A DNA stretch of 13,046 bases, taken from the IMG/VR virus record IMGVR_UViG_2657244971_000003; one strand, given 5' to 3'. A program made the position numbers and the translations under genes. This DNA is from a virus (lineage: Duplodnaviria; Heunggongvirae; Uroviricota; Caudoviricetes). The notes beneath the pieces were generated by a model that made no database searches, was not told where the DNA came from, and worked only from the letters and a program-made list of their open reading frames with translations. This document shows, piece after piece, positions 1,009 through 12,869 of the stretch. Each line of letters opens with the position of its first letter. The first letter of the stretch is position 1.

Positions 1009-1083
1009 GTCCTCTTAGTTAAATGGATATAACGAGCCCCTCCTAAGGGCTAATTGCAGGTTCGATTCCTGCAGGGGACACCA
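1009..1083 (+). tRNA. argW: tRNA-Arg, anticodon CCU
   Basis: 75-nt cloverleaf read directly: acceptor GTCCTCT/AGGGGAC, anticodon stem AGCCC/GGGCT with loop CTCCTAA (anticodon CCT), T-arm GCAGG-TTCGATT-CCTGC, discriminator A and encoded CCA. A TATACT -10-like hexamer lies at 992-997. Confidence 0.9.
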
Positions 1084-1178
1084 TTTATCAGTTCGCTCCC
1101 ATCCGTACCAGTCCGCAAAATCCCCTGAATATCAAGCCTTCCGTAGATTAACAGTTCGTAATGGTTCGCGTCAGATCG

Positions 1179-1244
1179 TTGACAGCCGCACTCCATGACG
1201 GGTAAAAAGTGGATAAAATAATTTTACCCACCGGATTTTTACCC
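1179..1244 (+). promoter_or_regulatory. Putative intS promoter overlapped by a cluster of GGGTAAAA / TTTTACCC motif copies (candidate Int arm-type or RDF binding sites)
   Basis: Perfect TTGACA at 1179-1184. About 18 bp downstream is a weak -10-like TAAAAA (1203-1208) that sits inside GGGTAAAAA (1200-1208). A near copy GGATAAAAT (1211-1219) and two inverted copies TTTTACCC (1222-1229) and TTTTTACCC (1236-1244) end at the intS ATG. The same motif recurs at 9727-9747 beside the torI-like gene. Confidence 0.45.
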
Positions 1245-2393
1245 ATGCTCACCGTTAAGCAGATTGAAGCAGCAAAGCCGAAAGAAAAACCATACCGCCT
1301 ACTCGATGGTAATGGCCTGTACCTTTATGTCCCTGTGTCAGGGAAAAAGGTATGGCAGCTTCGCTACAAGATTGACGGTAAGGAGAAAATCCTGACCGTA
1401 GGAAAATATCCGCTAATGACTTTGCAGGAGGCAAGAGATAAAGCATGGACCGCGAGGAAAGACATCTCGGTTGGCATCGATCCGGTAAAAGCGAAAAAGG
1501 CTTCGTCTAACAACAATTCCTTTAGTGCCATTTACAAGGAATGGTACGAGCACAAGAAGCAAGTCTGGTCAGTAGGCTATGCAACTGAACTTGCCAAAAT
1601 GTTTGATGACGACATTTTACCCATCATCGGCGGTCTTGAGATTCAGGATATTGAGCCGATGCAACTGCTGGAAGTAATCCGCAGATTTGAAGATCGCGGT
1701 GCAATGGAGCGAGCCAACAAAGCCCGCAGAAGATGCGGCGAGGTTTTCCGTTACGCCATTGTCACTGGTAGGGCTAAATATAACCCGGCACCTGACCTTG
1801 CTGACGCCATGAAGGGATACCGCAAGAAAAACTTCCCGTTTCTTCCTGCAGACCAGATCCCGGCATTTAACAAAGCACTGGCAACATTTTCAGGAAGCAT
1901 CGTATCGCTCATTGCGACCAAAGTTTTACGCTACACAGCCCTAAGAACGAAAGAGCTTCGTTCCATGCAATGGAAGAACGTCGATTTTGAAAACAGGATT
2001 ATCACTATCGACGCCAGTGTGATGAAGGGACGCAAGATTCATGTTGTCCCGATGTCGGACCAGGTGGTTGAACTTCTCACTACGCTAAGCTCAATCACCA
2101 AACCAGTATCAGAGTTTGTTTTTGCCGGGCGCAACGATAAGAAGAAGCCAATCTGCGAGAACGCGGTGCTACTTGTGATCAAACAAATCGGCTATGAGGG
2201 TCTGGAAAGCGGTCACGGATTCAGGCATGAATTCAGCACGATTATGAACGAGCACGGCTGGCCTGCTGATGCTATAGAGGTTCAGCTAGCCCACGCGACC
2301 GGTGGATCTGTTCGCGGAATTTACAATCACGCACAGTACATGGAAAAACGCCGCGAGATGATGCAGTGGTGGGCTGATTGGGTTGATTTGTGA
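1245..2393 (+). CDS. intS: P4-family tyrosine integrase (IntS-like), 382 aa
   Basis: ATG at 1245, in frame within the tracked ORF 1209-2393 (which begins at a GTG). N-terminus MLTVKQIEAAKPKEKPYRLLDGNGLYLYV is typical of the P4-integrase arm-binding domain. C-terminal region has the tyrosine-recombinase signature (HGFRHEF ... RGIYNHAQY). Position directly downstream of argW matches the IntS arrangement. Confidence 0.85.
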   Translation: MLTVKQIEAAKPKEKPYRLLDGNGLYLYVPVSGKKVWQLRYKIDGKEKILTVGKYPLMTLQEARDKAWTARKDISVGIDPVKAKKASSNNNSFSAIYKEWYEHKKQVWSVGYATELAKMFDDDILPIIGGLEIQDIEPMQLLEVIRRFEDRGAMERANKARRRCGEVFRYAIVTGRAKYNPAPDLADAMKGYRKKNFPFLPADQIPAFNKALATFSGSIVSLIATKVLRYTALRTKELRSMQWKNVDFENRIITIDASVMKGRKIHVVPMSDQVVELLTTLSSITKPVSEFVFAGRNDKKKPICENAVLLVIKQIGYEGLESGHGFRHEFSTIMNEHGWPADAIEVQLAHATGGSVRGIYNHAQYMEKRREMMQWWADWVDL

Positions 2394-2398
2394 ACCAG

Positions 2399-4357
2399 TT
2401 AATTTCTCAAAATAATATTACCAGTGGAGACAAACGAGAATATGAAGTTCCCGCGCGGCGTTCCGCCACCGGATGTATTTTGCTTCGGAAAAACCTGGAT
2501 GGAACCGAGCGCTGACATCTGAAATGTAAATGCCGGGGTATCATTTGTTATTACACTATCCTCAATAAACGAAATAACAGAAATGTTACCTATAGTCCCA
2601 GCCGACCTTTTGTATAACAGCTCATATATTGCACACTTTGTCTTGCTTGAGTTGTAAACTTGGCATGTGATTTTACCTGCACAGGATGACGCCGCATCGT
2701 TATCACTGTACGTCCCAACACCGACAACAGTTTTTGCAATACCTGACTCAACACTAACGGCTAACTCATTAGATGACTGAGACGATAAATTGTTATATCT
2801 GTCAGTTGTCAGCTTTTGAGCTGTTGAAACATTATCGTCGAGGAGCCTGGAGGCTACTGAATCGGCCTTAATATGCACCCCGCGAGACTGGCAACGCCCA
2901 AAAACTGCTGCACCGCCAGCGATAGAGACGCCTTTATGCGGAATTGAGGACAGGTCAACGCTACCGAAGTATGTCCTGTTTCCGCCATCACCACCAACCC
3001 TCTCGTCTATATTTCCAGGAACGACCCCTGCATATACCGCGCCTGAACCCACATTAATATCTAATATGTTACGGGTTGGTTTCTCTGCTGAAATAGAACC
3101 ATCTGCAATAGTTATGTTAGCGTAAATATCAGATGTACTCTCTATTCTCACTGCACTTGACGGTTGCTGCTGCCCACAGAATGCTATTTGATTAGATCCT
3201 GATATATTTAATGCAGCAGCCTGCCGTATAAATATCGCCTCTCTTCCACCTTCAAAATAATTGTTCGCTCCACTTATGTTTACCCACGCTGCTTTATCTA
3301 CATACAAATGATTTGAATGCGTTTTTGTGTTTCTGTCGGAATGCATTAAGTTATCTGAATAAATAAGACCATCAAGCTGCTCTGCTATAAACCCACCGTA
3401 CCGAGTAAACCAACCACGATTATTAGTGAATTTAAAATCATTATAGGCATACGCATGAGCATTATCGTGTTTCAGCTCAACTAATTTCCCGACATTAATG
3501 GCTGTCATGTTATCGATAGTGATAAGGCCTATTGCGTGAAATGGTGTTGTTGCGTCTGCAATGCCTTTGATTGCACAATCAACTCGAGTTGCTTTGATGT
3601 TAATGAAATCTATAAACCTTCCCTTTTTCAGCTTAAACCCGTAGTCACCACCAGGGGCAGTAGATGTAATCCCTATACCGTCAATGGTTTTAAGGGCCTC
3701 CCCCCTGCCGTCATTAATGATAAATGACAAATCTTGCAGCCAGCCGCCGCCAACAATATCACACAGTCTAGTCACCTCAATTGAAGCGCCCCCAAATTTC
3801 AACACCCCGCTAATGCCTAAGATAACCCCTTCATCTGAACACTTATGAACTGCATCAAGCAGCTTTTGAGGATCATTAATCACAGAAAATGAAAGCCCGA
3901 AATCTCTTGCGTCAATAACGGCTCTGTTTTCCAGGGAGTCTTTTAGAGTTTTCCCTCCGCCAACGCCAATTAATGAGCCATCTCCTTTCTTTAACTCATC
4001 ACGGAATCGTATTTCAAACTGGTCTGGATCATATTTCAATACATTCGGAAAATAGAACTGCTGCGCACCATATGCATCATAAACAGCCATAGAATGGCCT
4101 TGCACAGTTACGAATTTGGCAATCTGCCCGTTATATACCGGATATCCAGCAGCATTGATAACAATTGGCTGAGAAACAGGGACGTGAGATCCGTCTTCAT
4201 TCTCTACATAAACCTGAATCTGGTTTTCAGTATTTACCGGGTCCGTGTCAATTTTACCGATATAAATTTTGCCATTGGCTACGGCTTTAAAAGAACGCGC
4301 CATAGTGAAGATTTGCGAAGGCATCGATATAATCACATTGGCTGTAATGTCTGTCAT
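2399..4357 (-). CDS. Podovirus tailspike protein: P22-gp9-like N-terminal head-binding domain fused to a divergent receptor-binding domain, 652 aa
   Basis: N-terminal ~120 aa ([42 protein letters not shown]...[13 protein letters not shown]...NVLKYDPDQ) closely resembles the P22 tailspike head-binding domain as I recall it. The rest is Gly/Asn/Ser-rich, as expected for a beta-helix. GGAG lies about 10 nt upstream of the ATG at 4357. Receptor specificity cannot be called from sequence. Confidence 0.85.
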
Positions 4358-4414
4358 TTAATTTGCTCCAGATACAAGGAATCACCGAAGCATGGCTACG
4401 GTGAATTTTGGGCA

Positions 4415-4439
4415 TAAAAAAACCCAGCCGAAGCTGGGT
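4415..4439 (-). terminator. Rho-independent terminator downstream of ant (minus strand)
   Basis: On the minus strand: GC-rich hairpin CCCAGC-TTCG-GCTGGG (plus-strand 4423-4438) followed by a run of 7 T (complement of the A-run at 4416-4422). Confidence 0.55.
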
Positions 4440-4457
4440 CGTTGCGTTGGTTATCTG

Positions 4458-5381
4458 TCAGTAGTTATGTACTGAAGGAGGTAATTCTTTATTCTTAAGT
4501 CTCATCCATGCGGAAAGATTCGTTGGTCCGTCTGGCTCATTAATATCAACATCTCGTGTGTGATTGATTAAAACGTCTCTCGCCATTCCGATAACATACG
4601 AGAACTCATGACCGTAGTCGTAGCATCTGCCTGAATAGTTCGATTGAATTTGTTTTAGCGCCGGATACAGTTCGCGGAATAATGCCTGTGAGCGGTTGGC
4701 ATAATCCCATAACCATACAAGGCTGTTTGCTTCTTTTGCAGAAAGCTCGTTTGCTTTCTTCTCTTGTTTGCCGATTAACTCGCCTTCAAGCGGAACGCGA
4801 GCTGCAAGTGACAGAGCTTCGGTAAACTGCTCATCGCTGATTTCTTTGTATGAACACCCAAAATGAGATTTCAGTGACGACCACATGGTAATCATTGCCT
4901 TCGCCTGTTTTTCTTTTGGCAGAGACTGACCGCGACTCATGACGAGTTGTTTAATGGCTTCCTGCTGTTCAGTGGTGATTTTACCCGGCAACGCCTTTTT
5001 AGCTTTGCGTGGGTTAACTACATGGCCTTTAGTCCAGTAGTCGTATAGCACATCGTCACACTCTTCTTGATACTGGATTACATTGTCGCGGATTTCAGGG
5101 CGGACTTTGTTAGGGCTGATGGTTTGCAACCAGCCATTCAGTTTACGTAAAGCAAGGCAAATCATGGTCTGCACACCGCCAACTGAAGGTATTGCGATTT
5201 CCACAATTCCTTTAGCAAATCTTTGTTTTAACTTTGTAAACTGTGAAGCCCAATCCATACCCATTCCCTCAACGATAGGTTTCATTGGGGTGTACGGTTC
5301 GCCGTTGTGATTGACAACATAAAGCTCTGCGCCGTGGAATGGCACGTTGATAGTAGATACTGCTGTTGCTATACTTTTCAT
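4458..5381 (-). CDS. ant: Phage antirepressor (Ant-like), 307 aa
   Basis: N-terminus [17 protein letters not shown]...[27 protein letters not shown] resembles antirepressor N-terminal domains as I recall them. It lies between an arc-like gene and the tailspike, the P22 immI order. AGGAAT lies about 8 nt upstream of the ATG at 5381. Confidence 0.8.
5347..5375 (+). promoter_or_regulatory. Candidate promoter for a sar-like antisense RNA, inside the first codons of ant on the opposite strand
   Basis: TTGATA (5347-5352), 17-bp spacer, TATACT (5370-5375). The predicted start near 5382 is immediately antisense to the ant start codon (5379-5381). Confidence 0.4.
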
Positions 5382-5456
5382 GTCGTTAATTCCTATGCGT
5401 GGTTTTACGATACCGAAGCCCTGACTGTTCCAGCAGTTGGGGCTTCAACTTTTTTG
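5382..5456 (+). ncRNA. Putative sar-like small antisense RNA (~75 nt) complementary to the ant ribosome-binding region
   Basis: Runs from the predicted start (~5382) across the complement of the ant Shine-Dalgarno and ends at a plus-strand terminator: extended imperfect hairpin GAAGCCCTGACTG / CAGTTGGGGCTTC (5415-5446) followed by TTTTTT (5450-5455). P22 has a short Sar antisense RNA at the analogous position. Predicted from motifs only. Confidence 0.4.
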
Positions 5457-5687
5457 TCCAGCTTGTCCGAGTAAAAATCCAGATACATGCTCTACTGACT
5501 GGTCAACCTCAATTTTTCTGCCAGAAGTTAATGTAATAAGCGCACAATCGTCACCTGTGCCCTCTACCAACTCAATGTTTTGGCGTCTTATGGTGTATGT
5601 CGTTTTGTTTTTTTCGAATCTAATCCGCCACCAATCACTTGTCCTTCTGCTTTCAAACTTTGTTTTAGTTAGGGTTATAAAGCTCAT
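5445..5687 (-). CDS. Hypothetical 80-aa protein inserted between arc and ant, translationally coupled to arc
   Basis: Its ATG (5685-5687) overlaps the arc-like stop TGA (5684-5686) as ATGA. No recognisable motif. Product MSFITLTKTKFESRRTSDWWRIRFEKNK... is basic at the N-terminus and acidic in the middle. Confidence 0.5.
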   Translation of the reverse strand: MSFITLTKTKFESRRTSDWWRIRFEKNKTTYTIRRQNIELVEGTGDDCALITLTSGRKIEVDQSVEHVSGFLLGQAGQKS

Positions 5688-5824
5688 ACCGTTATCCCCT
5701 CTCTCTTCAGGCTATCCATCACCCGTTTAATTACTTCTGCGCTAAATGAGCGACACTCTTCCTTTGCTTTCTCTTCAAGGATTTTTTCTAACTTCTCTGG
5801 CATACGCAGTGTTTTTACCTTCAT
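5684..5824 (-). CDS. arc: Arc-like ribbon-helix-helix repressor, 46 aa
   Basis: Hand-translated (below the 60-aa floor of the ORF track): MKVKTLRMPEKLEKILEEKAKEECRSFSAEVIKRVMDSLKREGITV. C-terminal half resembles the P22 Arc C-terminus (...QRVMESFKKEGRIGA). GGAGAA lies about 6 nt upstream of the ATG. It is divergent from a Mnt-like gene. Confidence 0.7.
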   Translation of the reverse strand: MKVKTLRMPEKLEKILEEKAKEECRSFSAEVIKRVMDSLKREGITV

Positions 5825-5929
5825 TGCATTCTCCGTTGTATGTGGTACGCATACATAGTATTTAGGTACGCATTGATAGTCAATAGATACCTACATATCC
5901 TGTGGTAAAAAATTATTCAGGATGTGCCG
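5825..5929. promoter_or_regulatory. Divergent immI-like promoter/operator region between arc and mnt
   Basis: A 105-bp gap between divergent RHH repressor genes. 9-bp direct repeats GGTACGCAT at 5844-5852 and 5865-5873 are spaced 21 bp apart. An imperfect inverted repeat TGTATG...CATACA lies around 5838-5856. TTGATA is at 5873-5878. Confidence 0.5.
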
Positions 5930-6181
5930 ATGTCTGATCGTAAGTACAAAAACCCTCAAGTGAATCTGAGGCTTCCTGTAGAGATAAAGGAACGTCTTAT
6001 TGAACTGGCTGAGGCTAATTCTCGTTCATTAAATGCTGAGATGGTCGCGGCACTTGAAGCGTGGACAGAAAAAAATAAACACATTCAAGCACTAGACCTT
6101 GCAACTATAGCATCACGATTGATAGATCTTGAACACGATGTTGAGACACTGAAAACCATGTATGGTAAGGATGCAAAATGA
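5930..6181 (+). CDS. mnt: Mnt-like ribbon-helix-helix repressor, 83 aa from the ATG
   Basis: The tracked ORF begins at GTG 5924, but the ATG at 5930 has AGGA 8 nt upstream. N-terminus (NLRLPVEIKERLIELAEANSRSLNAEMVAALEAW) follows the Arc/Mnt pattern. Orientation is divergent from arc-ant, as in P22 immI. Confidence 0.7.
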   Translation: MSDRKYKNPQVNLRLPVEIKERLIELAEANSRSLNAEMVAALEAWTEKNKHIQALDLATIASRLIDLEHDVETLKTMYGKDAK

Positions 6182-6387
6182 ATAAAAAACAGTTTATTAA
6201 GTCAAAAACGTCAAGCAAGGAAGAGCTAGAGAAAGAGCTAAACTCCCTGAAATATGCTCTGTGTCTGGTTTACTCAAGACTGCCAATGGAAGATAAAAAC
6301 GCCATTTACAATGAAATGATTAGCAGCCTTGATTTTAACGATAGAGACCTAGCATCCCACCTCAACAGCTTCCGCGTCCCTGAGTAA
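6178..6387 (+). CDS. Hypothetical 69-aa protein translationally coupled to mnt
   Basis: Its ATG (6178-6180) overlaps the mnt stop TGA (6179-6181) as ATGA. Lys/Glu-rich N-terminus. No recognisable motif. Confidence 0.5.
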   Translation: MNKKQFIKSKTSSKEELEKELNSLKYALCLVYSRLPMEDKNAIYNEMISSLDFNDRDLASHLNSFRVPE

Positions 6388-6547
6388 TTCTGTTGCGGAT
6401 TTGCTTCTTGCGGTGGTTTAGGCTGGAGAGCTTGGCTTCTGCTTCTGATATTTGCGCATCTAGATCTTTAAGCTCAAGATCTGAAAGTCGCTGGTCAAGC
6501 AGGGTTTGGTTCAACTCAATGTTGTTCAGGCGTTCTTCTATGGTCAT
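6362..6547 (-). CDS. Hypothetical small coiled-coil protein, 61 aa from ATG 6547 (tracked ORF extends to 6640)
   Basis: MTIEERLNNIELNQTLLDQRLSDLELKDLDAQISEAEAKL has a heptad-like Leu/Ile pattern. AGGA lies about 9 nt upstream of the ATG at 6545-6547. Its 3' end overlaps the preceding plus-strand ORF by 26 nt. It could be a chance ORF. Confidence 0.35.
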   Translation of the reverse strand: MTIEERLNNIELNQTLLDQRLSDLELKDLDAQISEAEAKLSSLNHRKKQIRNRITQGRGSC

Positions 6548-6578
6548 AACTTTCATCCTATAACTATTTGGAATTAAA

Positions 6579-6761
6579 ATGAAAAATATATTAATTGGTT
6601 TCGTTTTTGGTGCAGCCTGCGCCGCCAGCATTAGCGTCATAGCCGCTCAGATTGTTGGTGGTAACTCATATCTAATGGGCTATGACGTCATGATAAATGG
6701 AGAGGTTGTTTGCTCAGACCCTTATGTATGGACGTCGACAAAAGAAATAGAATGTGACTAA
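6579..6761 (+). CDS. Hypothetical small secreted protein or lipoprotein, 60 aa
   Basis: N-terminus [24 protein letters not shown] looks like a signal peptide with a possible lipobox-like Cys. Weak RBS. Same strand as mnt. Confidence 0.4.
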
Positions 6762-6814
6762 TACCAGCCTGATGGCTGGTTAATTTCGTCATGCTCAAAA
6801 CTAAGGAGGTTGGT

Positions 6815-7042
6815 GTGAAGCGATGGTTCCTCATAATTACTGTTTTCGCGATCATTTACACTATTTTCCCTGCATTAAAAGCACCAATGCAAATAATTTC
6901 ACTAGCAATAATTTCGATTGGTGCTTTCATTGCAGTAGCCGTACTTGTGTTTAAGGTTTTAAAGTTTTTAGTTTGGCTATCAAAAGATGATGGATGCAAA
7001 GTTCATCAAGAAAAAGAAGGCAAAATAACCAAAGTTGACTAA
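6815..7042 (+). CDS. Hypothetical small inner-membrane protein with two predicted transmembrane helices, 75 aa from GTG 6815
   Basis: AAGGAGG (6803-6809) lies 5 nt upstream of the in-frame GTG at 6815; the tracked ORF begins at ATG 6791 without an RBS. Two hydrophobic segments (WFLIITVFAIIYTIF and IISLAIISIGAFIAVAVLVF). Same strand as mnt, the position where P22-like phages carry exclusion genes. Confidence 0.5.
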   Translation: MKRWFLIITVFAIIYTIFPALKAPMQIISLAIISIGAFIAVAVLVFKVLKFLVWLSKDDGCKVHQEKEGKITKVD

Positions 7043-8718
7043 CTGTCACTAGCGAGCCATGTAATAATCCCCGTGCGGGCAATGGTTTTTGCTTCATCTG
7101 TTGATAAGGTTTTCTCCCATCTCTTAAATGCCCCAGATTGCATCAGTTTCCTTTCTATTGCGCGTCTCACTTCTGCTCTGTCTACTGGTGCGTTTTGCAG
7201 GCGAAATAGCATTGATTTAAACTCAGGAGAAGATAGCAGAGCATCAGCAGCCTTTATCCTGCTTGTTTTCCCTGACATCAATGCAGACGTTATCACCCCT
7301 GTTGCACCTACACCAGGGAGACCAGATAAGCTTGTAATACCTTCCGCCGCAGCAGCTTTTGAGGCTATTCCATAAATTTTTGCGAGACTACCCTTTTCTT
7401 TCAGAAAGTTATTAACTTGCTGATCCACAAGACTACTAGCATACTGCTTACCAGTATTGAGTCTATTCATAGCCTTAGCTGCTTGATAAATCGTATCAAG
7501 GCGCTTTGATGCATCTGTGCCAATAGCATCACGGAGAGCCTTCATATTGGCCCCATTGCGTGACATTCCGTTATACCATTTTACAAATCCATCAACTCCT
7601 AATTGCTGACCAGGTGATTTGGCATAGCTGGTAAATGCTTTATTCATTGAGGTGAGCGCAACTTCCTGCCGCATATCCTTTGGAATCGACTTCATTAATT
7701 GCCTAAAGTCGCCACCGTTTCCTTTTGCCATATTAACAACAGCACTTTCAACTTTTAGAATTGCTGATTGCTGAAGTTTTCTACCCAAGACGGTTACAGC
7801 ATCATCTTCAATGGATTTTCGTTTTTTTACCAACTCCTTACCAAGCGTCCATAATTCCCCTGCGCCATATTTTTCTGCGACAGCCTGTTGGTCATCTGTT
7901 ATGGCTGCATATAACTTTTTAAGAACACCTGTTTCTTCATCCTTGAATGGACCAGAGCCTTTGCCAATAGCTTGTCCAACCTGCTTTCTAGCGAGATCTA
8001 AACGCCCATACGTTGGCAAGGTGTTTGGATCAAGTCGGTTCAATGTCCGCTTCATTATTGGAGATAATTCATCAATTCCACCTATGTCATCAGCAAAATC
8101 CTCTAAAAAATTCAATGTATTAGTTGCCTCAATCCGGTCTCTTACAGGAACCTTTTCGGCAATTTTGTTGTAGATGTTATCTGACTGATTTTGTAATGAT
8201 GAAATGGTTTTATCAAAATTATCTGCAAGCCTGTCAGAAACCAGTTGCTTATCAAGGCTTCCCCCAAATGAAGTTATCATTTCATCAGCTTTTCTTCCTA
8301 ATTCAGTAATAAAACGCTTATGCGCCTCACTAATCTCTGTTCCAGGGAGACTTGCCACTGCATTATCAAGAGCCCTGACAGCAGGATTATTAGAGATCAT
8401 GCCTGGAGTGGCATAATTTTCCAGTTCTAGCTCACGAATAGCATTTATCGCGTTAAAATCAGGATTAACTTCATCGGCGAAATCTTGAATAGCTCGTTGC
8501 CCGCCGATAAATTTATTGTCCATTGCGCCAGTAGCTTTCTTTAACGTTGCTTTAGATGATTTACTACCCATCCCTACGGATGAGCGATAAATATCTCCGG
8601 CACTATTTTTAATTTTTCCTGCAATCTTCCCAAGCGCTGGACCAACAATCTCGGCTATCCGGTAACTCCGGATGGTTGGATAAGCTGTAGTGAGCAGATG
8701 CCTTCCGCAGGGGAACAA
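7039..8718 (-). CDS. P22 gp16-family DNA ejection/injection protein, probably 5'-truncated (possible pseudogene)
   Basis: Long, alpha-helix-rich, Ala/Lys-rich product. It sits upstream of the sieA/mnt-like region, where gene 16 lies in P22. The frame is open to 8718, where the tracked ORF begins at a TTG with no RBS; the first in-frame ATG (8569-8571) has only a weak RBS. Identity is from synteny and composition, not motif recognition. Confidence 0.55.
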   Translation of the reverse strand: MFPCGRHLLTTAYPTIRSYRIAEIVGPALGKIAGKIKNSAGDIYRSSVGMGSKSSKATLKKATGAMDNKFIGGQRAIQDFADEVNPDFNAINAIRELELENYATPGMISNNPAVRALDNAVASLPGTEISEAHKRFITELGRKADEMITSFGGSLDKQLVSDRLADNFDKTISSLQNQSDNIYNKIAEKVPVRDRIEATNTLNFLEDFADDIGGIDELSPIMKRTLNRLDPNTLPTYGRLDLARKQVGQAIGKGSGPFKDEETGVLKKLYAAITDDQQAVAEKYGAGELWTLGKELVKKRKSIEDDAVTVLGRKLQQSAILKVESAVVNMAKGNGGDFRQLMKSIPKDMRQEVALTSMNKAFTSYAKSPGQQLGVDGFVKWYNGMSRNGANMKALRDAIGTDASKRLDTIYQAAKAMNRLNTGKQYASSLVDQQVNNFLKEKGSLAKIYGIASKAAAAEGITSLSGLPGVGATGVITSALMSGKTSRIKAADALLSSPEFKSMLFRLQNAPVDRAEVRRAIERKLMQSGAFKRWEKTLSTDEAKTIARTGIITWLASDS

Positions 8719-8980
8719 GTGTTGGCGTACCGTCCAGACGCGCCGGAAAGTAATGATCCATTAATCAAGATGGCAACGTACGTTGGCGGGTCAGCACACG
8801 GACACGGCTTTGATTGCTACTGCAAGCCAACCCACTGGATGCCGCTGCCAGCAGCACCGCAGGAGGTGAACCGTGGCTAACCTGCAACTTGCCGTCAAAG
8901 GTGAATAACAATCCTCGCATTCGCGGGGATTTCTTTTATCTGAACTCGCTACGGCGGGTTTTGTTTTATGGAGATGATAA

Positions 8981-9148
8981 ATGCACTTTCGAGTCACAGG
9001 TGAATGGAATGGAGAGCCATTCAACAGGGTTATCGAAGCAGAGGACATCAACGACTGCTATAACCACTGGATGCTATGGGCGCAGATAGCACATGCAGAC
9101 GTAACCAATATTCGAATTGAAGAACTGAAAGAACACCAAGCCGCCTGA
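8981..9148 (+). CDS. Hypothetical 55-aa protein
   Basis: Hand-translated (below the ORF track floor): MHFRVTGEWNGEPFNRVIEAEDINDCYNHWMLWAQIAHADVTNIRIEELKEHQAA. GGAG lies 7 nt upstream of the ATG and a strong terminator follows directly. Confidence 0.5.
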   Translation: MHFRVTGEWNGEPFNRVIEAEDINDCYNHWMLWAQIAHADVTNIRIEELKEHQAA

Positions 9149-9161
9149 TGGCGGTTTTTTT
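9141..9161 (+). terminator. Rho-independent terminator
   Basis: CCGCC-TGAT-GGCGG hairpin followed by 7 T. The stop codon of the 55-aa ORF sits in the loop. Confidence 0.6.
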
Positions 9162-9172
9162 GGGGGTAGTAG

Positions 9173-9388
9173 ATGGCTGCAATTCACATTGTCTCAATAA
9201 TATGCAATGCAATTCAGATAGTTGCTTGCATTATCTTTGTTTTCTCAATTCTTCGCTCCCGACGATATTCTCCAGCAATTAACCGACATCCTGCACAGGT
9301 TGAAGCCGTCAGGATGGCTATAGAGTTACGAAATGAGATGAATAAGGCATTAATGGAGATGGAGAAACCATTCACTGACAAACATTAA
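9173..9388 (+). CDS. Hypothetical 71-aa protein with hydrophobic N-terminus
   Basis: ORF has an ATG start and a G-rich stretch upstream. N-terminal 25 residues are hydrophobic. No other support. Confidence 0.3.
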   Translation: MAAIHIVSIICNAIQIVACIIFVFSILRSRRYSPAINRHPAQVEAVRMAIELRNEMNKALMEMEKPFTDKH

Positions 9389-9466
9389 GAGTGGAAATAA
9401 AGAAATCACCCCGCCTCACACTCGATGAGGCATTTTCATTTATCAAGATATACAGACCTACCATCG

Positions 9467-9486
9467 CCGCATCAATGCGGTTTTTT
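9467..9486 (+). terminator. Putative rho-independent terminator just left of the 16-nt argW repeat
   Basis: CCGCA-TCAA-TGCGG hairpin followed by TTTTTT. Confidence 0.45.
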
Positions 9487-9496
9487 ATTGCCTGAT

Positions 9497-9512
9497 TTGC
9501 AGGTTCGATTCC
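9497..9512 (+). repeat. 16-nt direct repeat of the argW T-arm (TTGCAGGTTCGATTCC), candidate att core or att relic
   Basis: Exact 16/16 identity with 1054-1069 inside argW; flanking bases differ. The downstream sequence does not complete a T-stem, so it is not a tRNA. Confidence 0.6.
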
Positions 9513-9531
9513 CTATTCGGAGATAGCACTC

Positions 9532-9732
9532 ATGCAACACGAACTACAGCCTGATTCACTGGTTGATTTGAAATTCATCATGGCCGATACTGGCTTCGGT
9601 AAAACCTTCATCTACGACCGGATTAAGTCCGGCGACCTGCCAAAAGCCAAAGTTATCCACGGGCGAGCAAGATGGTTATATCGTGACCATTGTGAATTCA
9701 AAAATAAGCTCTTAAGCCGCGCTAATGGGTAA
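9532..9732 (+). CDS. torI: Excisionase / recombination directionality factor (TorI-like), 66 aa
   Basis: MQHELQPDSLVDLKFIMADTGFGKTFIYDRIKSGDLPKAKVIHGRARWLYRDHCEFKNKLLSRANG matches my recollection of E. coli TorI, the KplE1 excisionase. GGAGA lies about 8 nt upstream. The symbol is recalled, not searched. Confidence 0.7.
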   Translation: MQHELQPDSLVDLKFIMADTGFGKTFIYDRIKSGDLPKAKVIHGRARWLYRDHCEFKNKLLSRANG

Positions 9733-9747
9733 AATAGCGGGTAAAAT
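9727..9747 (+). promoter_or_regulatory. Tandem GGGTAAAAT motif copies near the right att site
   Basis: GGGTAAAAT at 9727-9735 and 9739-9747, overlapping the torI stop. The same motif clusters in front of intS at 1200-1244. Confidence 0.4.
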
Positions 9748-9805
9748 ATTTTTCACATCTAAAAAACACCATTCCAATCAATCCCCTGCTGCTTCAAGTA
9801 GATGT

Positions 9806-9818
9806 CTGCAGGGGACAC
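9806..9818 (+). repeat. 13-nt direct repeat of the argW 3' end (CTGCAGGGGACAC), candidate attR core of element A and relic attL of element B
   Basis: Exact 13/13 identity with 1069-1081. An 8-bp inverted partner TCCCCTGC sits at 9782-9789. Together with the 16-nt repeat it reconstitutes the argW 3' half (1054-1081), interrupted by about 293 bp that carry torI. Confidence 0.55.
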
Positions 9819-9932
9819 TTTAAAGACCTTTCTCTACATTTCACTTCATTACATAACCACTTAACAAAACAGTAAGTTATCACCGAATCGGCCTGATTTT
9901 CATTTCAGTTAATTTCATGACATTACAACCTC

Positions 9933-9981
9933 GTGATGGTATAAGTGATGGTATTCCCCAGTTCGATATGCAGATACCATC
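9933..9981. promoter_or_regulatory. Repeat cluster upstream of the second integrase (candidate arm-type or operator sites)
   Basis: Tandem direct 10-mers GTGATGGTAT at 9933-9942 and 9945-9954, plus an inverted copy ATACCATC at 9974-9981. Confidence 0.4.
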
Positions 9982-10004
9982 AATTTACCAAAATGAGTAC
10001 AGAT

Positions 10005-11279
10005 ATGGCCATTAATGTGCTTTCCCCCAAACAGATAGAAAACGCCAAGCCGAAGACCAATGATTACAAACTTACCGATGGAGGGAGTTTGTATCTACTG
10101 GTACGAAAGACTGGTGGAAAATACTGGCGTATGAATTATCGTTTTGATGGAAAACAAGTGACATTGGCATTAGGGGTCTACCCAGATGTCTCACTTGCAA
10201 CAGCGCGGAAACGGCGTGATGAAGCCAGGCAACTACTAGCCGATGGTCGTGATCCTCGCGAAGCAAAGAAACCCAAAAAGGAAGACCCAATTTCCCCCAC
10301 GTTCGAGAGTGTTGCCAGAGAGTGGCATAGTGGAACGATGGGGCATCCTGAGTGGAAAGAGATCACCCGTAAAAAAATTCTCCGAGAAATGGAAAACCAC
10401 CTCTTTCCTGCCATCGGTTCAAAGCCTATCGATACGCTCAAAACCCGTGACTTGATGCCGATGCTGGTTGAGATGACTGAGAAAGGAATTGGTGCCACAA
10501 CGAGCCGTGTAAAAACCACTATGACGAGCATCTTCCGTTATGCCGTGCAACGTGGAATTGTCGATTACAACCCTGCCCACGATCTAAAAGGTGCAATTAC
10601 GGCCCCCAAAGTACGACATCGCCCCGCACTACCTCTCGAACGTTTACCTGAACTGTTAGCGAAAACGAGAAGTTACACGGGAAGACCATTGACTCGCCTA
10701 GCAGTTCTCTTTTCCCTGCACACTTTTGTGCGATCCAGCGAACTACGACATGCCAGATGGGAGGAGATCGACATTGAAAATGGGCTATGGACGATACCAG
10801 GACAACGTGAAGAGATCGCAGGGGTTAAATTCTCAGATCGGGGTGCAAAGATGGGGGCTGCTCATTATGTCCCGCTATCTAGTCAGGCTATCGGGGTACT
10901 GGAGGATATAAGGAAAATCAGTGGTGAATATCTGCTGGTTTTTCCCGGTGACAGCAACCCATATAAACCGATGAGCGAAAACACAGTTAATAAAGCACTG
11001 CGAACGATGGGTTACGACACTCAAACTGATGTTTGCTTGCATGGGTTCAGGGCGATGGCCTGCTCTGCACTGACCGAATCAGGACTCTGGTCACGCGATG
11101 CAGTTGAACGGCAGATGAGTCACCAAGAAAGAAACGAAGTGCGGGCAGCATATGTGCATCTTGCGCAGCACATGCAGGAACGCCGCAGAATGATGCAATG
11201 GTGGTCTAATTATCTGGAACTAAATAAGGACGAATTCCATGCTCCTTATGACTTATCAGGTATTAACATTATCAATTAA
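10005..11279 (+). CDS. P4-family tyrosine integrase, about 424 aa
   Basis: N-terminus MAINVLSPKQIENAKPKTNDYKLTDGGSLYLLVRKTGGKYWRMNYRFDGKQ is the P4-integrase arm-binding domain pattern. Catalytic region has HGFRAMACS and RAAYVH. The start could instead be ATG 9993; the tracked ORF begins at GTG 9945 inside the repeat cluster. Confidence 0.8.
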   Translation: MAINVLSPKQIENAKPKTNDYKLTDGGSLYLLVRKTGGKYWRMNYRFDGKQVTLALGVYPDVSLATARKRRDEARQLLADGRDPREAKKPKKEDPISPTFESVAREWHSGTMGHPEWKEITRKKILREMENHLFPAIGSKPIDTLKTRDLMPMLVEMTEKGIGATTSRVKTTMTSIFRYAVQRGIVDYNPAHDLKGAITAPKVRHRPALPLERLPELLAKTRSYTGRPLTRLAVLFSLHTFVRSSELRHARWEEIDIENGLWTIPGQREEIAGVKFSDRGAKMGAAHYVPLSSQAIGVLEDIRKISGEYLLVFPGDSNPYKPMSENTVNKALRTMGYDTQTDVCLHGFRAMACSALTESGLWSRDAVERQMSHQERNEVRAAYVHLAQHMQERRRMMQWWSNYLELNKDEFHAPYDLSGINIIN

Positions 11280-11292
11280 ATACTCTTATAAT
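11263..11292 (+). promoter_or_regulatory. Candidate sigma70 promoter for the 293-aa orphan gene
   Basis: TTAACA (11263-11268), 18-bp spacer, perfect TATAAT (11287-11292). AGAGG RBS at 11300-11304. Confidence 0.45.
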
Positions 11293-11309
11293 TTAAAACA
11301 GAGGTCATA

Positions 11310-12191
11310 ATGCAGCATTCAACAGAGAATGAAACTATATTCTTAGGAAATCTATGGATTGACAAAAAAATACCACCATTAGAATATTGTTCATTTGAAC
11401 GCGCTTCAAGACTATTAGAATGCGAGATTGATGATTTATTACATCTATACGAAATAGGCGCTTTTAATATCGCATTCAAGGCGAATGGACTTGCAGTTAG
11501 ATTTAATGTTAATTTCCTCAATAAAAATCAGAAAATGGAAATTGACTTAATTCATCCCGTATTAACTAATCAATCACTAGAGATGGAATTTTCAACAATA
11601 TGGTATGACCTTAAAGATGATTCCTTTGAACATTTTGAAAATGGGCTTCAAATTATAGGATTTGCCTGTGGTATTTGGTACGCCGATGATATGATAAGTG
11701 ACATAAAAAATGGATTAGCTATAGATCCAGATTATGAATTCAGGCTTAAACCGGTAAAAATACGAGATAATGTTTTGATGGCAACGGCCTCATATGAAGG
11801 AAATAAGGTCATTGAGATTCCATTTGAAGATCTTCTTATCATGCGAAGAGATTTAGAGTTAATATGGAAATCAGTAAAAACTGGAATTCCTATGCCAAGT
11901 TTACTTACGAAAAGAATTTCATCTGAACCTAAAATCCCCAAGCGATTAAATAACACTGCTGAGCATCATGCAAAAAATAGGGAGGGGTTATTAAATGCAG
12001 CCATATATATATTAGCAAAATACCCAAGCGAATGTCGTGGTGAAAGAAAAGAGATAAGTCCTGAAAAGTGGACTAACGCCATAATTAAACATTTAGGAGA
12101 GCTACCTCCAATATTTATCACTAATGAACAAGAAATCTTAAGAAAATTACGATTAGCGGTTAATCATGCGGGATTAAAACAAAAGGGGTAG
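11310..12191 (+). CDS. Hypothetical 293-aa protein, strongly AT-rich, no recognisable domain; candidate accessory cargo
   Basis: Long ORF with a good RBS and its own promoter. It is visibly more AT-rich than the flanking integrase and alpA-like genes (judged by eye, not computed). I found no Walker A, clear nuclease or HTH signature by eye. Confidence 0.65.
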   Translation: MQHSTENETIFLGNLWIDKKIPPLEYCSFERASRLLECEIDDLLHLYEIGAFNIAFKANGLAVRFNVNFLNKNQKMEIDLIHPVLTNQSLEMEFSTIWYDLKDDSFEHFENGLQIIGFACGIWYADDMISDIKNGLAIDPDYEFRLKPVKIRDNVLMATASYEGNKVIEIPFEDLLIMRRDLELIWKSVKTGIPMPSLLTKRISSEPKIPKRLNNTAEHHAKNREGLLNAAIYILAKYPSECRGERKEISPEKWTNAIIKHLGELPPIFITNEQEILRKLRLAVNHAGLKQKG

Positions 12192-12293
12192 ACTGAAACA
12201 ATCTACAGGTAGAGTTGATTACACTACCTTCACAGCATTTTGATATCCCCATAGTATCTGCCGTGTTCATTACATAATACGGCAGGTAATTTC

Positions 12294-12509
12294 ATGACAT
12301 TAAAAACTTATCCTATCACTGGACATGCCCGCCCACGAGCTACTGCTGACTTTTTGCAAATAAGTACGGTTACTCTCTGGCGCTGGGAAAAGAACAATCC
12401 TGAATTTCCCAAATCTATACGCATTTCAAAACGGGTATCTGTTTACGATGCACAAGAAATTAGGCAGTGGGTTAAAGCTCAATCAGCAGGATTGGAGGAA
12501 GTAGTGTAA
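12294..12509 (+). CDS. AlpA-family phage regulatory protein / excisionase-like HTH protein, 71 aa
   Basis: ISTVTLWRWEKNNPEFPKSIRISKRVSVYDAQEIRQWV fits the AlpA/Xis-like winged-helix pattern. A hairpin CTGCCGT...ACGGCAG (12258-12285) lies just upstream. Confidence 0.65.
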   Translation: MTLKTYPITGHARPRATADFLQISTVTLWRWEKNNPEFPKSIRISKRVSVYDAQEIRQWVKAQSAGLEEVV

Positions 12510-12558
12510 TGACAATATTAACAAAGCTGGGGAGAAAAAAGCCTCCCCAACGTATTAA

Positions 12559-12753
12559 TCAATTCTTTGGTTCTAAACCTCGGCTTTGTAACTCTTTGCG
12601 TAGAATGCGCTTGATCCAAGCCGCTAGCGATTCATCGCCATCCTGCTGTTGTGCTTGTTCCATCAGTTCACGCAGTTCAGGGTCAAGTCGGAACTGGAAT
12701 GGCGGATTCCCACGTCTTTCATTTTTGTGTGTTGACACGTCAATTACACCCAT
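12559..12753 (-). CDS. Hypothetical small DNA-binding protein, possibly ribbon-helix-helix, 64 aa
   Basis: FQFRLDPELRELMEQA...SLAAWIKRILRKEL has a strand-helix-helix-like pattern. No clear RBS. It is divergent from the Icd-like ORF across an inverted-repeat region. Confidence 0.4.
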   Translation of the reverse strand: MGVIDVSTHKNERRGNPPFQFRLDPELRELMEQAQQQDGDESLAAWIKRILRKELQSRGLEPKN

Positions 12754-12766
12754 TGTAATGTATTTA

Positions 12767-12787
12767 TGTGTAATGACACATTACACA
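12767..12787. promoter_or_regulatory. Inverted repeat TGTGTAATG-ACA-CATTACACA, candidate operator
   Basis: 9-bp arms are perfect reverse complements with a 3-bp spacer. Related ATTACA/TGTAAT motifs occur at about 12741-12760, 12215-12222 and 12268-12275. Confidence 0.4.
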
Positions 12788-12869
12788 CAGAAAAACAAAA
12801 TAGCAACGCCCCGGAGTGTTTGCAGCAGCACCGAGGCGTCTGACCAGCACGTTATATGAGGTAACGAAG

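What the first reader, a model, noticed from the sequence alone, without database searches (positions are those of the whole stretch)
11263..12191. AT-rich 293-aa orphan gene with its own promoter between a P4-family integrase and alpA: candidate anti-phage or abortive-infection cargo
The ORF at 11310-12191 is much more AT-rich than its neighbours, which points to recent acquisition. It has a perfect TATAAT -10 (11287-11292), a TTAACA -35 and an AGAGG RBS, so it is likely expressed independently of the integrase. It sits between the integrase and the AlpA-like gene, which in P4-like satellites and Gram-negative PICI-like islands is a known variable slot that often carries defence genes (established knowledge about those families). 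I see no known catalytic or NTP-binding motif, so if it is a defence gene it may be an undescribed single-gene system.
Basis: partly seen in the sequence, partly recalled or inferred. Interest (0 to 1): 0.7.

Follow-up and report, generated by a model that had tools for sequence, protein, structure and literature searches.

The report
Conserved satellite gene of unknown function
The AT-rich gene is real, but it is neither an orphan nor a recent arrival: it belongs to a large, unstudied protein family that sits between the integrase and AlpA genes in many phage-satellite islands of enterobacteria, and its function is still unknown.

Summary
The ORF at 11310-12191 (293 aa, called X here) exists as described. 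It has GC 0.33 against 0.48 for the integrase, and the quoted TTAACA/TATAAT/AGAGG signals are at the quoted coordinates.

It is not an orphan. A profile search finds 565 protein clusters, with no Pfam, PADLOC, NCBIfam or PDB match. Only PHROG 7144 matches, and that has unknown function.

In about 20 distinct islands the order is int, X, alpA. This holds at several attachment sites, in P4-like and PICI-like satellites, and even where the integrases are only 25% identical. Every family member is AT-rich. In this lineage X diverged in step with int under purifying selection. So AT-richness is a family trait, not a sign of recent acquisition.

The protein is modular:
- an acidic N-terminal domain resembling AlpA
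- an acidic, hypervariable beta-rich middle
- a basic, highly constrained 80-aa helical C-terminus

Islands with 90% identical integrases carry X alleles only 20% identical in the N/middle part.

The documented defence hotspots of these elements lie elsewhere. An anti-phage role is possible but untested. A role as a helper-sensing regulator of alpA is nearly as likely.

Verdict: a real gene from an uncharacterised, position-locked satellite family.

The parts
11310..12191 (+). Gene X, 293 aa. Acidic N-terminal domain with an AlpA-like fold (about residues 20-70), acidic hypervariable beta-rich middle (about 73-195), basic linker (196-214), basic conserved helical C-terminal domain (215-293).
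   Evidence: ORF and translation. AlphaFold2 model with pLDDT 85. Domain conservation and pI. dN/dS 0.13-0.23 overall and 0.04-0.07 in the C-terminal domain.
11263..11292 (+). Sigma-70 promoter-like site TTAACA-18-TATAAT. Its -35 lies inside the 3' end of int.
   Evidence: 11 of 12 consensus matches, but the site count in the region equals the shuffle expectation. Kept in L018, L027 and L029; lost in L028 and L009. Absent in most other islands.
11300..11304 (+). AGAGG Shine-Dalgarno sequence, 5 nt before the ATG.
   Evidence: Read from the sequence. Conserved in the close lineage.
12188..12206 (+). First small stem-loop, overlapping the X stop codon.
12207..12229 (+). Conserved 9-bp stem-loop or inverted repeat AGGTAGAGT..ACACTACCT after X. 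It is terminator-like and abuts the -35 of the alpA promoter-like site.
   Evidence: Consensus structure in 8 islands, 3 pairs with compensatory changes. Present in all loci that have the canonical C-terminus.
12229..12257 (+). Promoter-like site for alpA (TTCACA-17-TAGTAT).
   Evidence: 9 of 12 consensus matches. The X-alpA gap is 102-118 nt in 12 of the 16 loci where alpA was located; the other four gaps are 90, 126, 152 and 397 nt.
12294..12509 (+). alpA (Vis/AlpA-family regulator), the downstream partner of the conserved int-X-alpA block.
   Evidence: PF05930, E = 1.6e-7. Synteny.
9945..11279 (+). P4-type tyrosine integrase (RefSeq start corresponds to 10005), the upstream partner of the block.
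   Evidence: Pfam domains. RefSeq annotation in L001 and L018.
9801..9818 (+). Repeat of the tRNA-Arg 3' end, the probable left attachment site of the satellite.
   Evidence: Direct repeat D2 with 1064-1081.

Best explanation
X is a long-resident gene under purifying selection. It belongs to a large, uncharacterised protein family that is locked into the integration module (int, X, alpA) of Enterobacterales phage satellites, both P4-like and PICI-like. That much is shown.

It is transcribed with or just after int. In this lineage it probably also uses its own promoter. A conserved stem-loop separates it from the alpA promoter. So it is probably made in the integrated, quiescent state (inferred).

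The protein is modular. The acidic AlpA-like N-terminal domain and the acidic hypervariable middle domain form the specificity or sensor part. The basic, extremely constrained 80-aa helical C-terminal domain is the output. It would bind either nucleic acid or a partner that is conserved across islands (inferred).

My most likely reading is that X is a phage-sensing accessory protein. It would help the satellite and its host in conflicts with phages, by interference, exclusion or defence, rather than acting as a recombination factor. The descriptive part is well supported. The anti-phage mechanism is inference only.
For: Family size: 565 clusters.

Position: int, X, alpA in the window and in L002, L006, L009-L011, L013, L015, L016, L020-L022, L024, L027 and L030. 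L012, L028 and L029 have int then X, with no alpA called. L017 and L025 have X then alpA, with int off the contig or not listed.

Residence and selection: dS of X is similar to dS of int, with omega 0.13-0.23 overall and 0.04-0.07 in the C-terminal domain.

Features that fit conflict genes:
- X alleles are swapped on near-identical backbones. Int is 86-90% identical while the X N/middle part is 19-22% and the C-terminus 64-78%.
- L021 carries a different C-terminus on the same backbone.
- The family is AT-rich throughout.
- There is a conserved stem-loop after the stop codon.
- An intact X-like gene stands alone in K. pneumoniae, without int or alpA. This argues for a function that does not depend on island recombination.

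Domain properties: median pI is 5.2 for N, 4.6 for the middle and 9.0 for C.

Precedent: unknown genes in satellite accessory slots often prove to be antiviral (6 of 8 tested in PMC13586616). An E. coli PICI confers superinfection immunity through an unidentified gene (PMC11773190).
Against: - No member matches any PADLOC model.
- No enzymatic or NTP-binding motif is present.
- No structural neighbour was found: Foldseek E >= 0.037 against PDB and BFVD.
- The family is almost never seen outside the int-alpA position. Defence genes typically turn up in many contexts (PMC13586616).
- The documented hotspots of these satellites are elsewhere.
- Average dN/dS in the middle domain is 0.15-0.31, with no sign of positive selection at this resolution.
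- No experiment bears on the gene.
Confidence: 0.4

Rival explanations
1. X is a helper-sensing regulator of the satellite. The basic C-terminal domain binds the inverted repeat that abuts the -35 of the alpA promoter. The variable acidic part binds a helper-phage protein. X would therefore set when alpA, the master activator, is switched on, working in the manner of SaPI Stl or of a MerR-type sensor.
For: - Strict linkage to alpA, with a spacer of 102-118 nt in 12 of the 16 loci where alpA was located (90-397 nt in the other four).
- The conserved stem or inverted repeat at 12207-12229 touches the -35 at 12229-12234.
- Loci whose X has a non-canonical C-terminus carry a different inverted repeat at that place.
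- The N-terminus aligns in register with the AlpA helix-turn-helix (hhalign probability 53%, E = 1.3e-4) and has a strand-helix-helix-hairpin fold.
- Weak, non-significant Foldseek hits to MerR-type sensors BmrR, BrlR, EcmrR and STM3175.
- Some satellites are reported to carry two regulator genes (PMC10085698).
Against: - The match between repeat type and C-terminus type is confounded by physical linkage. The repeat lies 15 nt after the stop codon and would be swapped together with the 3' end of the gene.
- G-U pairs and compensatory changes fit an RNA terminator equally well.
- The alpA promoter region stays the same between islands whose X N/middle parts are unrelated (L002 against L020).
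- The helix-turn-helix-like domain is acidic, with an invariant Asp in the 'recognition' helix.
- Many satellites work without X (CP4-57, EcCIMP1, L023).
- A lone copy persists in Klebsiella without alpA.
Confidence: 0.3
2. X is an accessory factor of site-specific recombination. It would act as an architectural or directionality factor working with the integrase at att.
For: - X lies directly downstream of int, mostly without a recognisable promoter of its own. Gaps are 13-115 nt.
- Its N-terminal domain has an excisionase/AlpA-like fold.
- It lies in the 'integration zone' defined for Gram-negative PICIs (PMC10111431).
Against: - Identity of the X N/middle part does not track Int identity (Spearman 0.13).
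- Islands with 90% identical Int carry unrelated X alleles.
- The C-terminal domain is 56-60% identical where Int is 25% identical.
- AlpA already fills the directionality role.
- The lone copy in Klebsiella has no int.
- Only this island shows repeated motifs shared between the att-int region and the alpA region. These fit AlpA/Vis or Int-arm sites rather than X sites.
Confidence: 0.1
3. X is a host-directed accessory regulator, or another lysogenic-conversion function unrelated to phages. PerC-like genes on related PICIs are an example of that kind.
For: - AT-rich, moron-like unit.
- Related islands carry PerC-family and other host-directed genes (PMC11773190).
- The lone copy is retained in K. 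pneumoniae.
Against: - Nothing links X to any host pathway.
- The hypervariable middle domain and the allele swapping are more typical of conflict genes.
Confidence: 0.15

Closest known systems
Accessory (defence) genes in hotspots of P4-like satellites and PICIs, such as gop-beta-cII, Tai and the new systems of PMC13586616
   Same: - Carried by a phage satellite next to the integrase.
- AT-rich.
- No homology to characterised proteins.
- Alleles are swapped between near-identical backbones.
- A unit bounded by a stem-loop.
   Different: - X does not lie in a documented hotspot (int to psu-delta-sid, primase to att, PICI 5' or 3' ends, next to pri).
- The same protein family occupies the slot across very distant islands, rather than unrelated families replacing each other.
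- X was not found in other genomic contexts, apart from one lone copy.
- No PADLOC match.
SaPI Stl master repressors
   Same: - Encoded next to int.
- N-terminal helix-turn-helix-like domain followed by a variable part that could recognise different phage proteins.
- Very diverse between related islands.
   Different: - X is co-directional with alpA rather than divergent.
- The helix-turn-helix-like domain is acidic.
- No sequence or fold match.
- Gram-negative satellites are described as activated through AlpA, with no repressor known.
AlpA / Vis / excisionase (HTH_17, MerR-like winged helix) proteins
   Same: - The N-terminal 50 residues have the strand-helix-helix-hairpin order.
- They align in register with the AlpA proteins of the same islands.
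   Different: - No Pfam hit.
- Profile-profile probability is only 53%.
- X is four times longer.
- Its pI is acidic.
- An invariant Asp sits where AlpA has basic or polar DNA-contacting residues.
Bro-N / KilA-N network of domain-swapping phage and satellite proteins
   Same: - Modules (N/middle part and C-terminus) are recombined between alleles.
- Found in the same elements.
   Different: - No Bro-N, KilA-N, ANT, Rha or ORF6 domain was detected in 60 members.
- X lies in the integration zone, not the Bro zone.
PHROG 7144
   Same: 20 of 60 family members match it (best E = 1e-42).
   Different: The PHROG has no known function, and the window protein itself does not reach its threshold.

Membership tests
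Known anti-phage defence systems (PADLOC-DB v2) | Match to a model of a known or candidate defence protein | tested here: not met
   0 hits for the window protein and for all 60 diverse members.
P4-like satellite main defence hotspot cargo | Located between the integrase and the psu-delta-sid operon | tested here: not met
   In the complete island (L018) the order is int, X, alpA, icd-like, DUF5375, alpha, sid-like, psu, delta, [YecA-family gene], attR. X is separated from psu-delta-sid by the whole early and replication region. The hotspot definition comes from PMC13586616 and PMC8628076.
P4-like satellite main defence hotspot cargo | Unrelated gene families replace each other between elements with near-identical core genes | tested here: inconclusive
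   At the yicC site, three of the four sampled slot genes are X-family members, comprising two distinct alleles (L020/L022 and L021). One slot gene (L023) is unrelated. Swapping therefore occurs mostly within one family.
P4-like satellite main defence hotspot cargo | The same genes also occur in other mobile elements and chromosomal contexts | tested here: not met
   About 20 distinct contexts show X with int and/or alpA. One lone copy was found (L026). There was no hit in 50,697 phage records.
AlpA / HTH_17 (MerR-like) DNA-binding regulators | Pfam PF05930 or PF12728 match | tested here: not met
   No Pfam family at E<=0.1, and none in 60 members.
AlpA / HTH_17 (MerR-like) DNA-binding regulators | Winged-helix fold (strand, helix, helix, beta-hairpin) with a basic DNA-contacting surface | tested here: inconclusive
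   The secondary-structure order fits (E26-28, H29-35, H40-48, E54-68). hhalign against the islands' AlpA proteins gives probability 53%. The domain is acidic, with median pI 5.2.
SaPI Stl-type master repressor | Adjacent to int and divergently transcribed from the island's regulatory operon, with operators in between | tested here: not met
   X is co-directional with int and alpA in all loci.
SaPI Stl-type master repressor | Binds island operator DNA and is released by a helper-phage protein | not testable with these tools
   Needs EMSA and reporter assays with helper proteins.
Orphan gene (no homologs) | No detectable relatives | tested here: not met
   565 clusters at E<=1e-3, with members in Escherichia, Salmonella, Klebsiella, Serratia, Yersinia, Pantoea, Morganella, Xenorhabdus and Photorhabdus.
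Bro-N / KilA-N domain-swapping network | Presence of a Bro-N, KilA-N, ANT, Rha, P22_AR or ORF6 module | tested here: not met
   None found in 60 members. The neighbouring P22-type ant gene in the same window is detected by the same search.

The most novel reading that the evidence does not exclude
X founds a large, so far unrecognised class of satellite-encoded modular phage sensors. A hypervariable acidic domain would recognise a phage protein. A near-invariant basic 80-aa domain with no detectable structural neighbour in the PDB or BFVD Foldseek searches would deliver the output. The output would be one of two things: a new single-gene anti-phage or interference mechanism, or the missing switch that tells Gram-negative satellites a helper phage is present by acting at the alpA promoter.
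Probability: 0.3. Interest if true: 0.75.

Novelty: new variant of a known kind. Interest (0 to 1): 0.5.

Why it matters
The integration module of Gram-negative phage satellites is usually described as int plus alpA. This analysis shows a third partner that is widespread and position-locked, and that nobody seems to have studied. It has 565 clusters, no Pfam family and no structural neighbour.

Its pattern is a hypervariable sensor-like part joined to a C-terminal domain more constrained than the integrase itself. That is the pattern expected of a protein at the interface between a satellite and phages.

If it is an anti-phage or interference protein, it adds a new single-gene system and a new accessory position to search. 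If it controls alpA, it bears on how Gram-negative satellites sense their helpers; the papers I read report that helper induction raises alpA expression but give no sensing mechanism. If it does neither, it is still a useful marker gene for this class of islands.

Tried and rejected
- **Sequence libraries.** Pfam, PADLOC, PHROGs and NCBIfam gave nothing for the protein itself. Pfam on 60 members gave only chance hits. PDB sequence searches with the whole-family profile and with a C-terminal-domain profile gave nothing meaningful.
- **YfjH.** The gene between intA and alpA in K-12 CP4-57 was tested as a possible relative and rejected.
- **Alternative C-termini.** The C-termini of L021 and L026 and the L023 slot protein were tested against the canonical C-terminal profile. 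None is related. The L025 C-terminus is related, at probability 98%.
- **Literature.** No paper mentions WP_001164861. Satellite papers were read for this gene or this slot. None describes the family. The Cell 2022 PICI-immunity paper is not held, and there are no held supplements for PMC13586616.
- **Recent acquisition.** Rejected on GC across the family and on dS.
- **EcCIMP1.** I considered whether the window was EcCIMP1 next to its helper Kapi1. EcCIMP1 is a different island, at tRNA-Thr.
- **Genome-collection scan.** The scan with degenerate patterns returned only 3 loci. The more diverse alignment had no usable pattern.
Full report
**1. The observation**

The ORF at 11310-12191 on the + strand exists and encodes 293 aa. 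Sliding windows give GC 0.31-0.35 over it, against about 0.50 over the integrase and 0.41 over alpA. Whole genes give 0.33 against 0.48.

The quoted signals are at the quoted coordinates:
- TTAACA at 11263-11268
- an 18-nt spacer
- TATAAT at 11287-11292
- AGAGG at 11300-11304
- ATG at 11310

The promoter match is 11 of 12. However, the region holds as many promoter-like sites (6) as its shuffles do (6.1), so the match is not evidence on its own. The flanking genes are a P4-type tyrosine integrase (Arm-DNA-bind_3, Phage_int_M, Phage_integrase) and a Phage_AlpA protein. I call the gene X.

**2. X is not an orphan**

A word-indexed search found 14 clusters. An exhaustive profile search found 565 clusters at 50% identity with E<=1e-3, of which 176 have E<=1e-10. 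Nearly all are 260-380 aa.

Named members are all 'hypothetical protein'. They come from Escherichia, Salmonella, Klebsiella, Serratia, Yersinia, Pantoea, Morganella, Xenorhabdus and Photorhabdus.

No Pfam family fits any of 60 diverse members, and no PADLOC model does either. PHROG 7144, of unknown function, fits 20 of them. PDB sequence searches are empty.

In complete E. coli genomes:
- This allele is in 68 of 5426.
- A second allele is in 41.
- DNA resembling the C-terminal coding part of that second allele is in 119.

**3. The element**

In strain 504838 the full island sits at tRNA-Arg (argW) beside yfdC. Its gene order is int, X, alpA, a small minus-strand YlcI/YnfO-like gene, icd-like, two small genes, DUF5375, a TOPRIM+DUF927 primase, a sid-like gene, psu, delta (interrupted by an IS66 element), a YecA-family gene, then the sucrose genes.

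It is therefore a P4-like satellite with an unusual order. The canonical order is int, hotspot, psu-delta-sid, alpA, epsilon, alpha (PMC8628076). The left half of this island has the layout described for Gram-negative PICIs, with an integration zone, a Bro/immunity zone and a replication zone (PMC10111431).

**4. Position is conserved across very distant islands**

Every family member whose context I could read lies directly after a co-directional P4-type integrase. alpA follows it in almost every case.

| Site or element | Loci |
|---|---|
| yicC site, E. coli | L002, L020-L022 |
| yicC site, Yersinia | L006 |
| argW-type islands, Pantoea, Salmonella and metagenomes | L009, L027-L029 |
| Pectobacterium, Intestinirhabdus | L010, L011 |
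| Other sites | L012, L013, L016 |
| der site | L015, L030 |
| Contig end | L017 |
| 22.9-kb circular Klebsiella element that looks like an excised PICI | L024 |
| IncF plasmid | L025 |

Between these islands Int is 25-90% identical and AlpA 3-86% (about 20-45% between islands at different sites). The X-alpA gap is 102-118 nt in 12 of the 16 loci where alpA was located. The other four gaps are 90, 126, 152 and 397 nt.

The only exception to the context rule is an intact X-like gene (293 aa, GC 0.48) that stands alone. It lies beside the equivalent yfdC locus of K. pneumoniae.

In E. coli the three genes of this lineage occur together: int in 72 genomes, X in 68, and the alpA block in 73.

**5. 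AT-richness is a family trait**

X has GC 0.30-0.41 in all loci inside islands, while the adjacent int has 0.45-0.57.

Within the argW lineage the synonymous divergence of X (0.27-0.44) is similar to that of int (0.25-0.32). X is under purifying selection:

| Region | dN/dS |
|---|---|
| X overall | 0.13-0.23 |
| X N-terminal domain | 0.1-0.35 |
| X middle domain | 0.15-0.31 |
| X linker | 0.25-0.64 |
| X C-terminal domain | 0.04-0.07 |
| Integrase | 0.08-0.12 |

X has therefore travelled with int for a long time and has stayed AT-rich. The 'recent acquisition' inference fails.

**6. Anatomy of the protein**

The AlphaFold2 model built on 60 sequences has pLDDT 85. It shows:
- a strand-helix-helix-hairpin unit at residues 26-68
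- a beta-rich domain at 89-178 followed by a helix at 179-191
- a disordered linker at 192-214
- a helical domain at 215-292

The N-terminal unit aligns in register with the helix-turn-helix of the islands' own AlpA proteins. Support is only moderate (hhalign probability 53%, E = 1.3e-4).

The N-terminal and middle parts are acidic (family median pI 5.2 and 4.6). The linker and C-terminal domain are basic (pI 11 and 9).

The C-terminal domain carries most of the invariant residues:
- E218
- N223-R224-E225
- Y238-P239
- E241-C242-R243-G244
- S250-P251-E252-K253-W254
- P266-P267

Foldseek finds no neighbour below E = 0.037 in PDB or BFVD. The few MerR-type sensor hits have E about 1-2 and are not significant.

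**7. Alleles are swapped**

Islands whose integrases are 86-90% identical (L002, L006, L010, L011) carry X proteins whose N/middle parts are 19-22% identical and whose C-termini are 64-78% identical. The exceptions are the L002/L006 and L010/L011 pairs, which share the same allele.

The window and L002 have Int 26% and AlpA 24% identical, yet their X C-termini are 59% identical.

L021 has the same backbone as L020, but its X has another N/middle part and an unrelated C-terminus. L023 has an unrelated 216-aa gene in the slot. K-12 CP4-57 has yfjH there, on the other strand, and it is not homologous to X.

The slot is therefore variable, but it is mostly filled by one family whose modules recombine.

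**8. Transcription signals**

The strong promoter-like site is kept in the nearest relatives (L018, L027, L029). It is lost in L028 and L009. Most other islands have no recognisable sigma-70 site within 160 nt upstream of X. Co-transcription with int is therefore the likely general rule.

All islands have a stem-loop just after the X stop codon. In the islands with the canonical C-terminus it is a 9-bp stem, AGGnAnAGT..ACTnTnCCT, with three compensated pairs. In the window it lies at 12207-12229, and its 3' arm touches the -35 of the alpA promoter-like site at 12229-12257.

This stem-loop may be a terminator that shields alpA from read-through. It may also be an operator. The data do not separate these two possibilities, because the repeat is physically linked to the 3' end of the gene.

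**9. What it most likely does**

The following points are shown:
- X is a conserved, constrained and modular protein.
- It is tied to the integration module of satellites.
- It has a hypervariable part and a near-invariant basic part.

The rest is inferred.

I favour a phage-sensing accessory role in phage-satellite conflict, such as interference, exclusion or defence. I give this a confidence of about 0.4. Allele swapping on identical backbones, AT-richness, a self-contained unit and the retained lone copy in Klebsiella are all typical of conflict genes. Unknown genes in satellite accessory slots often prove to be antiviral (PMC13586616).

A helper-sensing regulator of the alpA promoter is nearly as likely (0.3). 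A recombination accessory (0.1) fits poorly, because X does not co-vary with Int. A host-directed function (0.15) cannot be excluded.

**10. Comparison with what is known**

X is not a member of any defined defence family, nor of the AlpA/HTH_17, Stl or Bro-network families. The defining features I could test were either not met or inconclusive.

The documented hotspots lie elsewhere:
- In P4-like satellites: between int and psu-delta-sid, and between the primase and att.
- In PICIs: at the 5' end, the 3' end and next to pri.

The statement that the int-alpA interval is a known defence slot is therefore not borne out by the papers I could read.

**11. Verdict**

X is a real gene from an uncharacterised but widespread family, with an unusual evolutionary pattern. 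The words 'orphan' and 'recent' are wrong, and the defence idea remains open.

Interest is moderate (0.5). It would rise sharply if either the sensor-defence role or the alpA-switch role were shown.

Noticed in passing
window 1009-9818: The window holds a tandem array at tRNA-Arg(CCT), which lies at 1009-1083.
- Positions 1084 to about 9530 are a fragment of a CUS-3/Kapi1/N7-like P22-type prophage. It includes int at 1209-2393, a tailspike with the P22 head-binding domain at 2399-4357 (-), ant at 4458-5381 (-), and sar antisense RNA at 5383-5450.
- The tRNA 3' end is repeated at 9497-9512 and 9801-9818.
- The satellite follows these repeats.
   Followed up: partly
window 9532-9732: A small HTH_17-like ORF (66 aa) lies between the two tRNA-end repeats. 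The matching stretch of phage N7 includes a feature annotated 'putative excisionase'. It belongs either to the prophage fragment or to a third remnant.
   Followed up: no
window 9845-9856, 9914-9925, 12266-12277, 12291-12302: There are four exact, co-oriented copies of TTCATKACATWA, two upstream of int and two at the alpA start. The search (which allowed one mismatch) found five sites in all, against 0.54 expected by chance. The regions upstream of int and upstream of alpA are paralogous, down to the ribosome-binding region and the first three codons. These are probably AlpA/Vis or integrase-arm sites. From my own recollection, not checked here, P4 Vis binds both its own promoter and attP. Other islands showed no such shared 9-mers.
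   Followed up: partly
window 12255-12288: A stem-loop of about 13 bp lies in the alpA leader and ends 5 nt before the ATG. Every other island has a stem at the same place but with a different sequence, for example CCCGTAAC..GTTACGGG. This suggests a conserved RNA element controlling alpA translation or transcription.
   Followed up: partly
L026 3983-4864 (K. pneumoniae, NZ_OP378650.1): An intact X-like gene (WP_004188919.1, 293 aa, GC 0.48) stands alone beside the yfdC-like locus. It has a third type of C-terminus and no integrase or alpA nearby. The tblastn match statistics were identical in six records (four K. pneumoniae, two of unstated species or K. aerogenes). It is either a domesticated or a stranded copy.
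   Followed up: partly
L024 (NZ_CP033626.1, 22.9 kb circular): A Klebsiella 'plasmid' looks like an excised PICI-like satellite. It carries int, X, alpA, AntA, icd, a primase, SSB, PerC and a superinfection-immunity gene. It was assembled with part of the element duplicated.
   Followed up: no
window 12509-12859 (+) and 12559-12753 (-): Two overlapping ORFs lie on opposite strands just after alpA. RefSeq annotates the 64-aa minus-strand one, and calls it YlcI/YnfO family in some genomes. The 116-aa plus-strand ORF has no family hit. Which of the two is real was not resolved.
   Followed up: no
NZ_CP069707.1 (strain E41), hit H7: An IS1 element appears to be inserted within or beside the X gene in one of the 68 E. 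coli carriers; the hit splits the match into two pieces and two hypothetical proteins are annotated there.
   Followed up: no
L006, L010, L011, L013, L015, L020, L021: int-X gaps: The 93-115-nt gap between int and X at the yicC-type, der and related sites is strongly conserved (GGGGCGAAAAGCGGGAAGCCTTACCGCCTGGCTCAATC...), even where the X alleles are unrelated. It contains no recognisable sigma-70 promoter, and its role is unknown.
   Followed up: no
window 7039-8718 (-): A 559-aa ORF in the prophage fragment has no Pfam family. Its only hit is a weak match to the tape-measure C-terminal domain.
   Followed up: no
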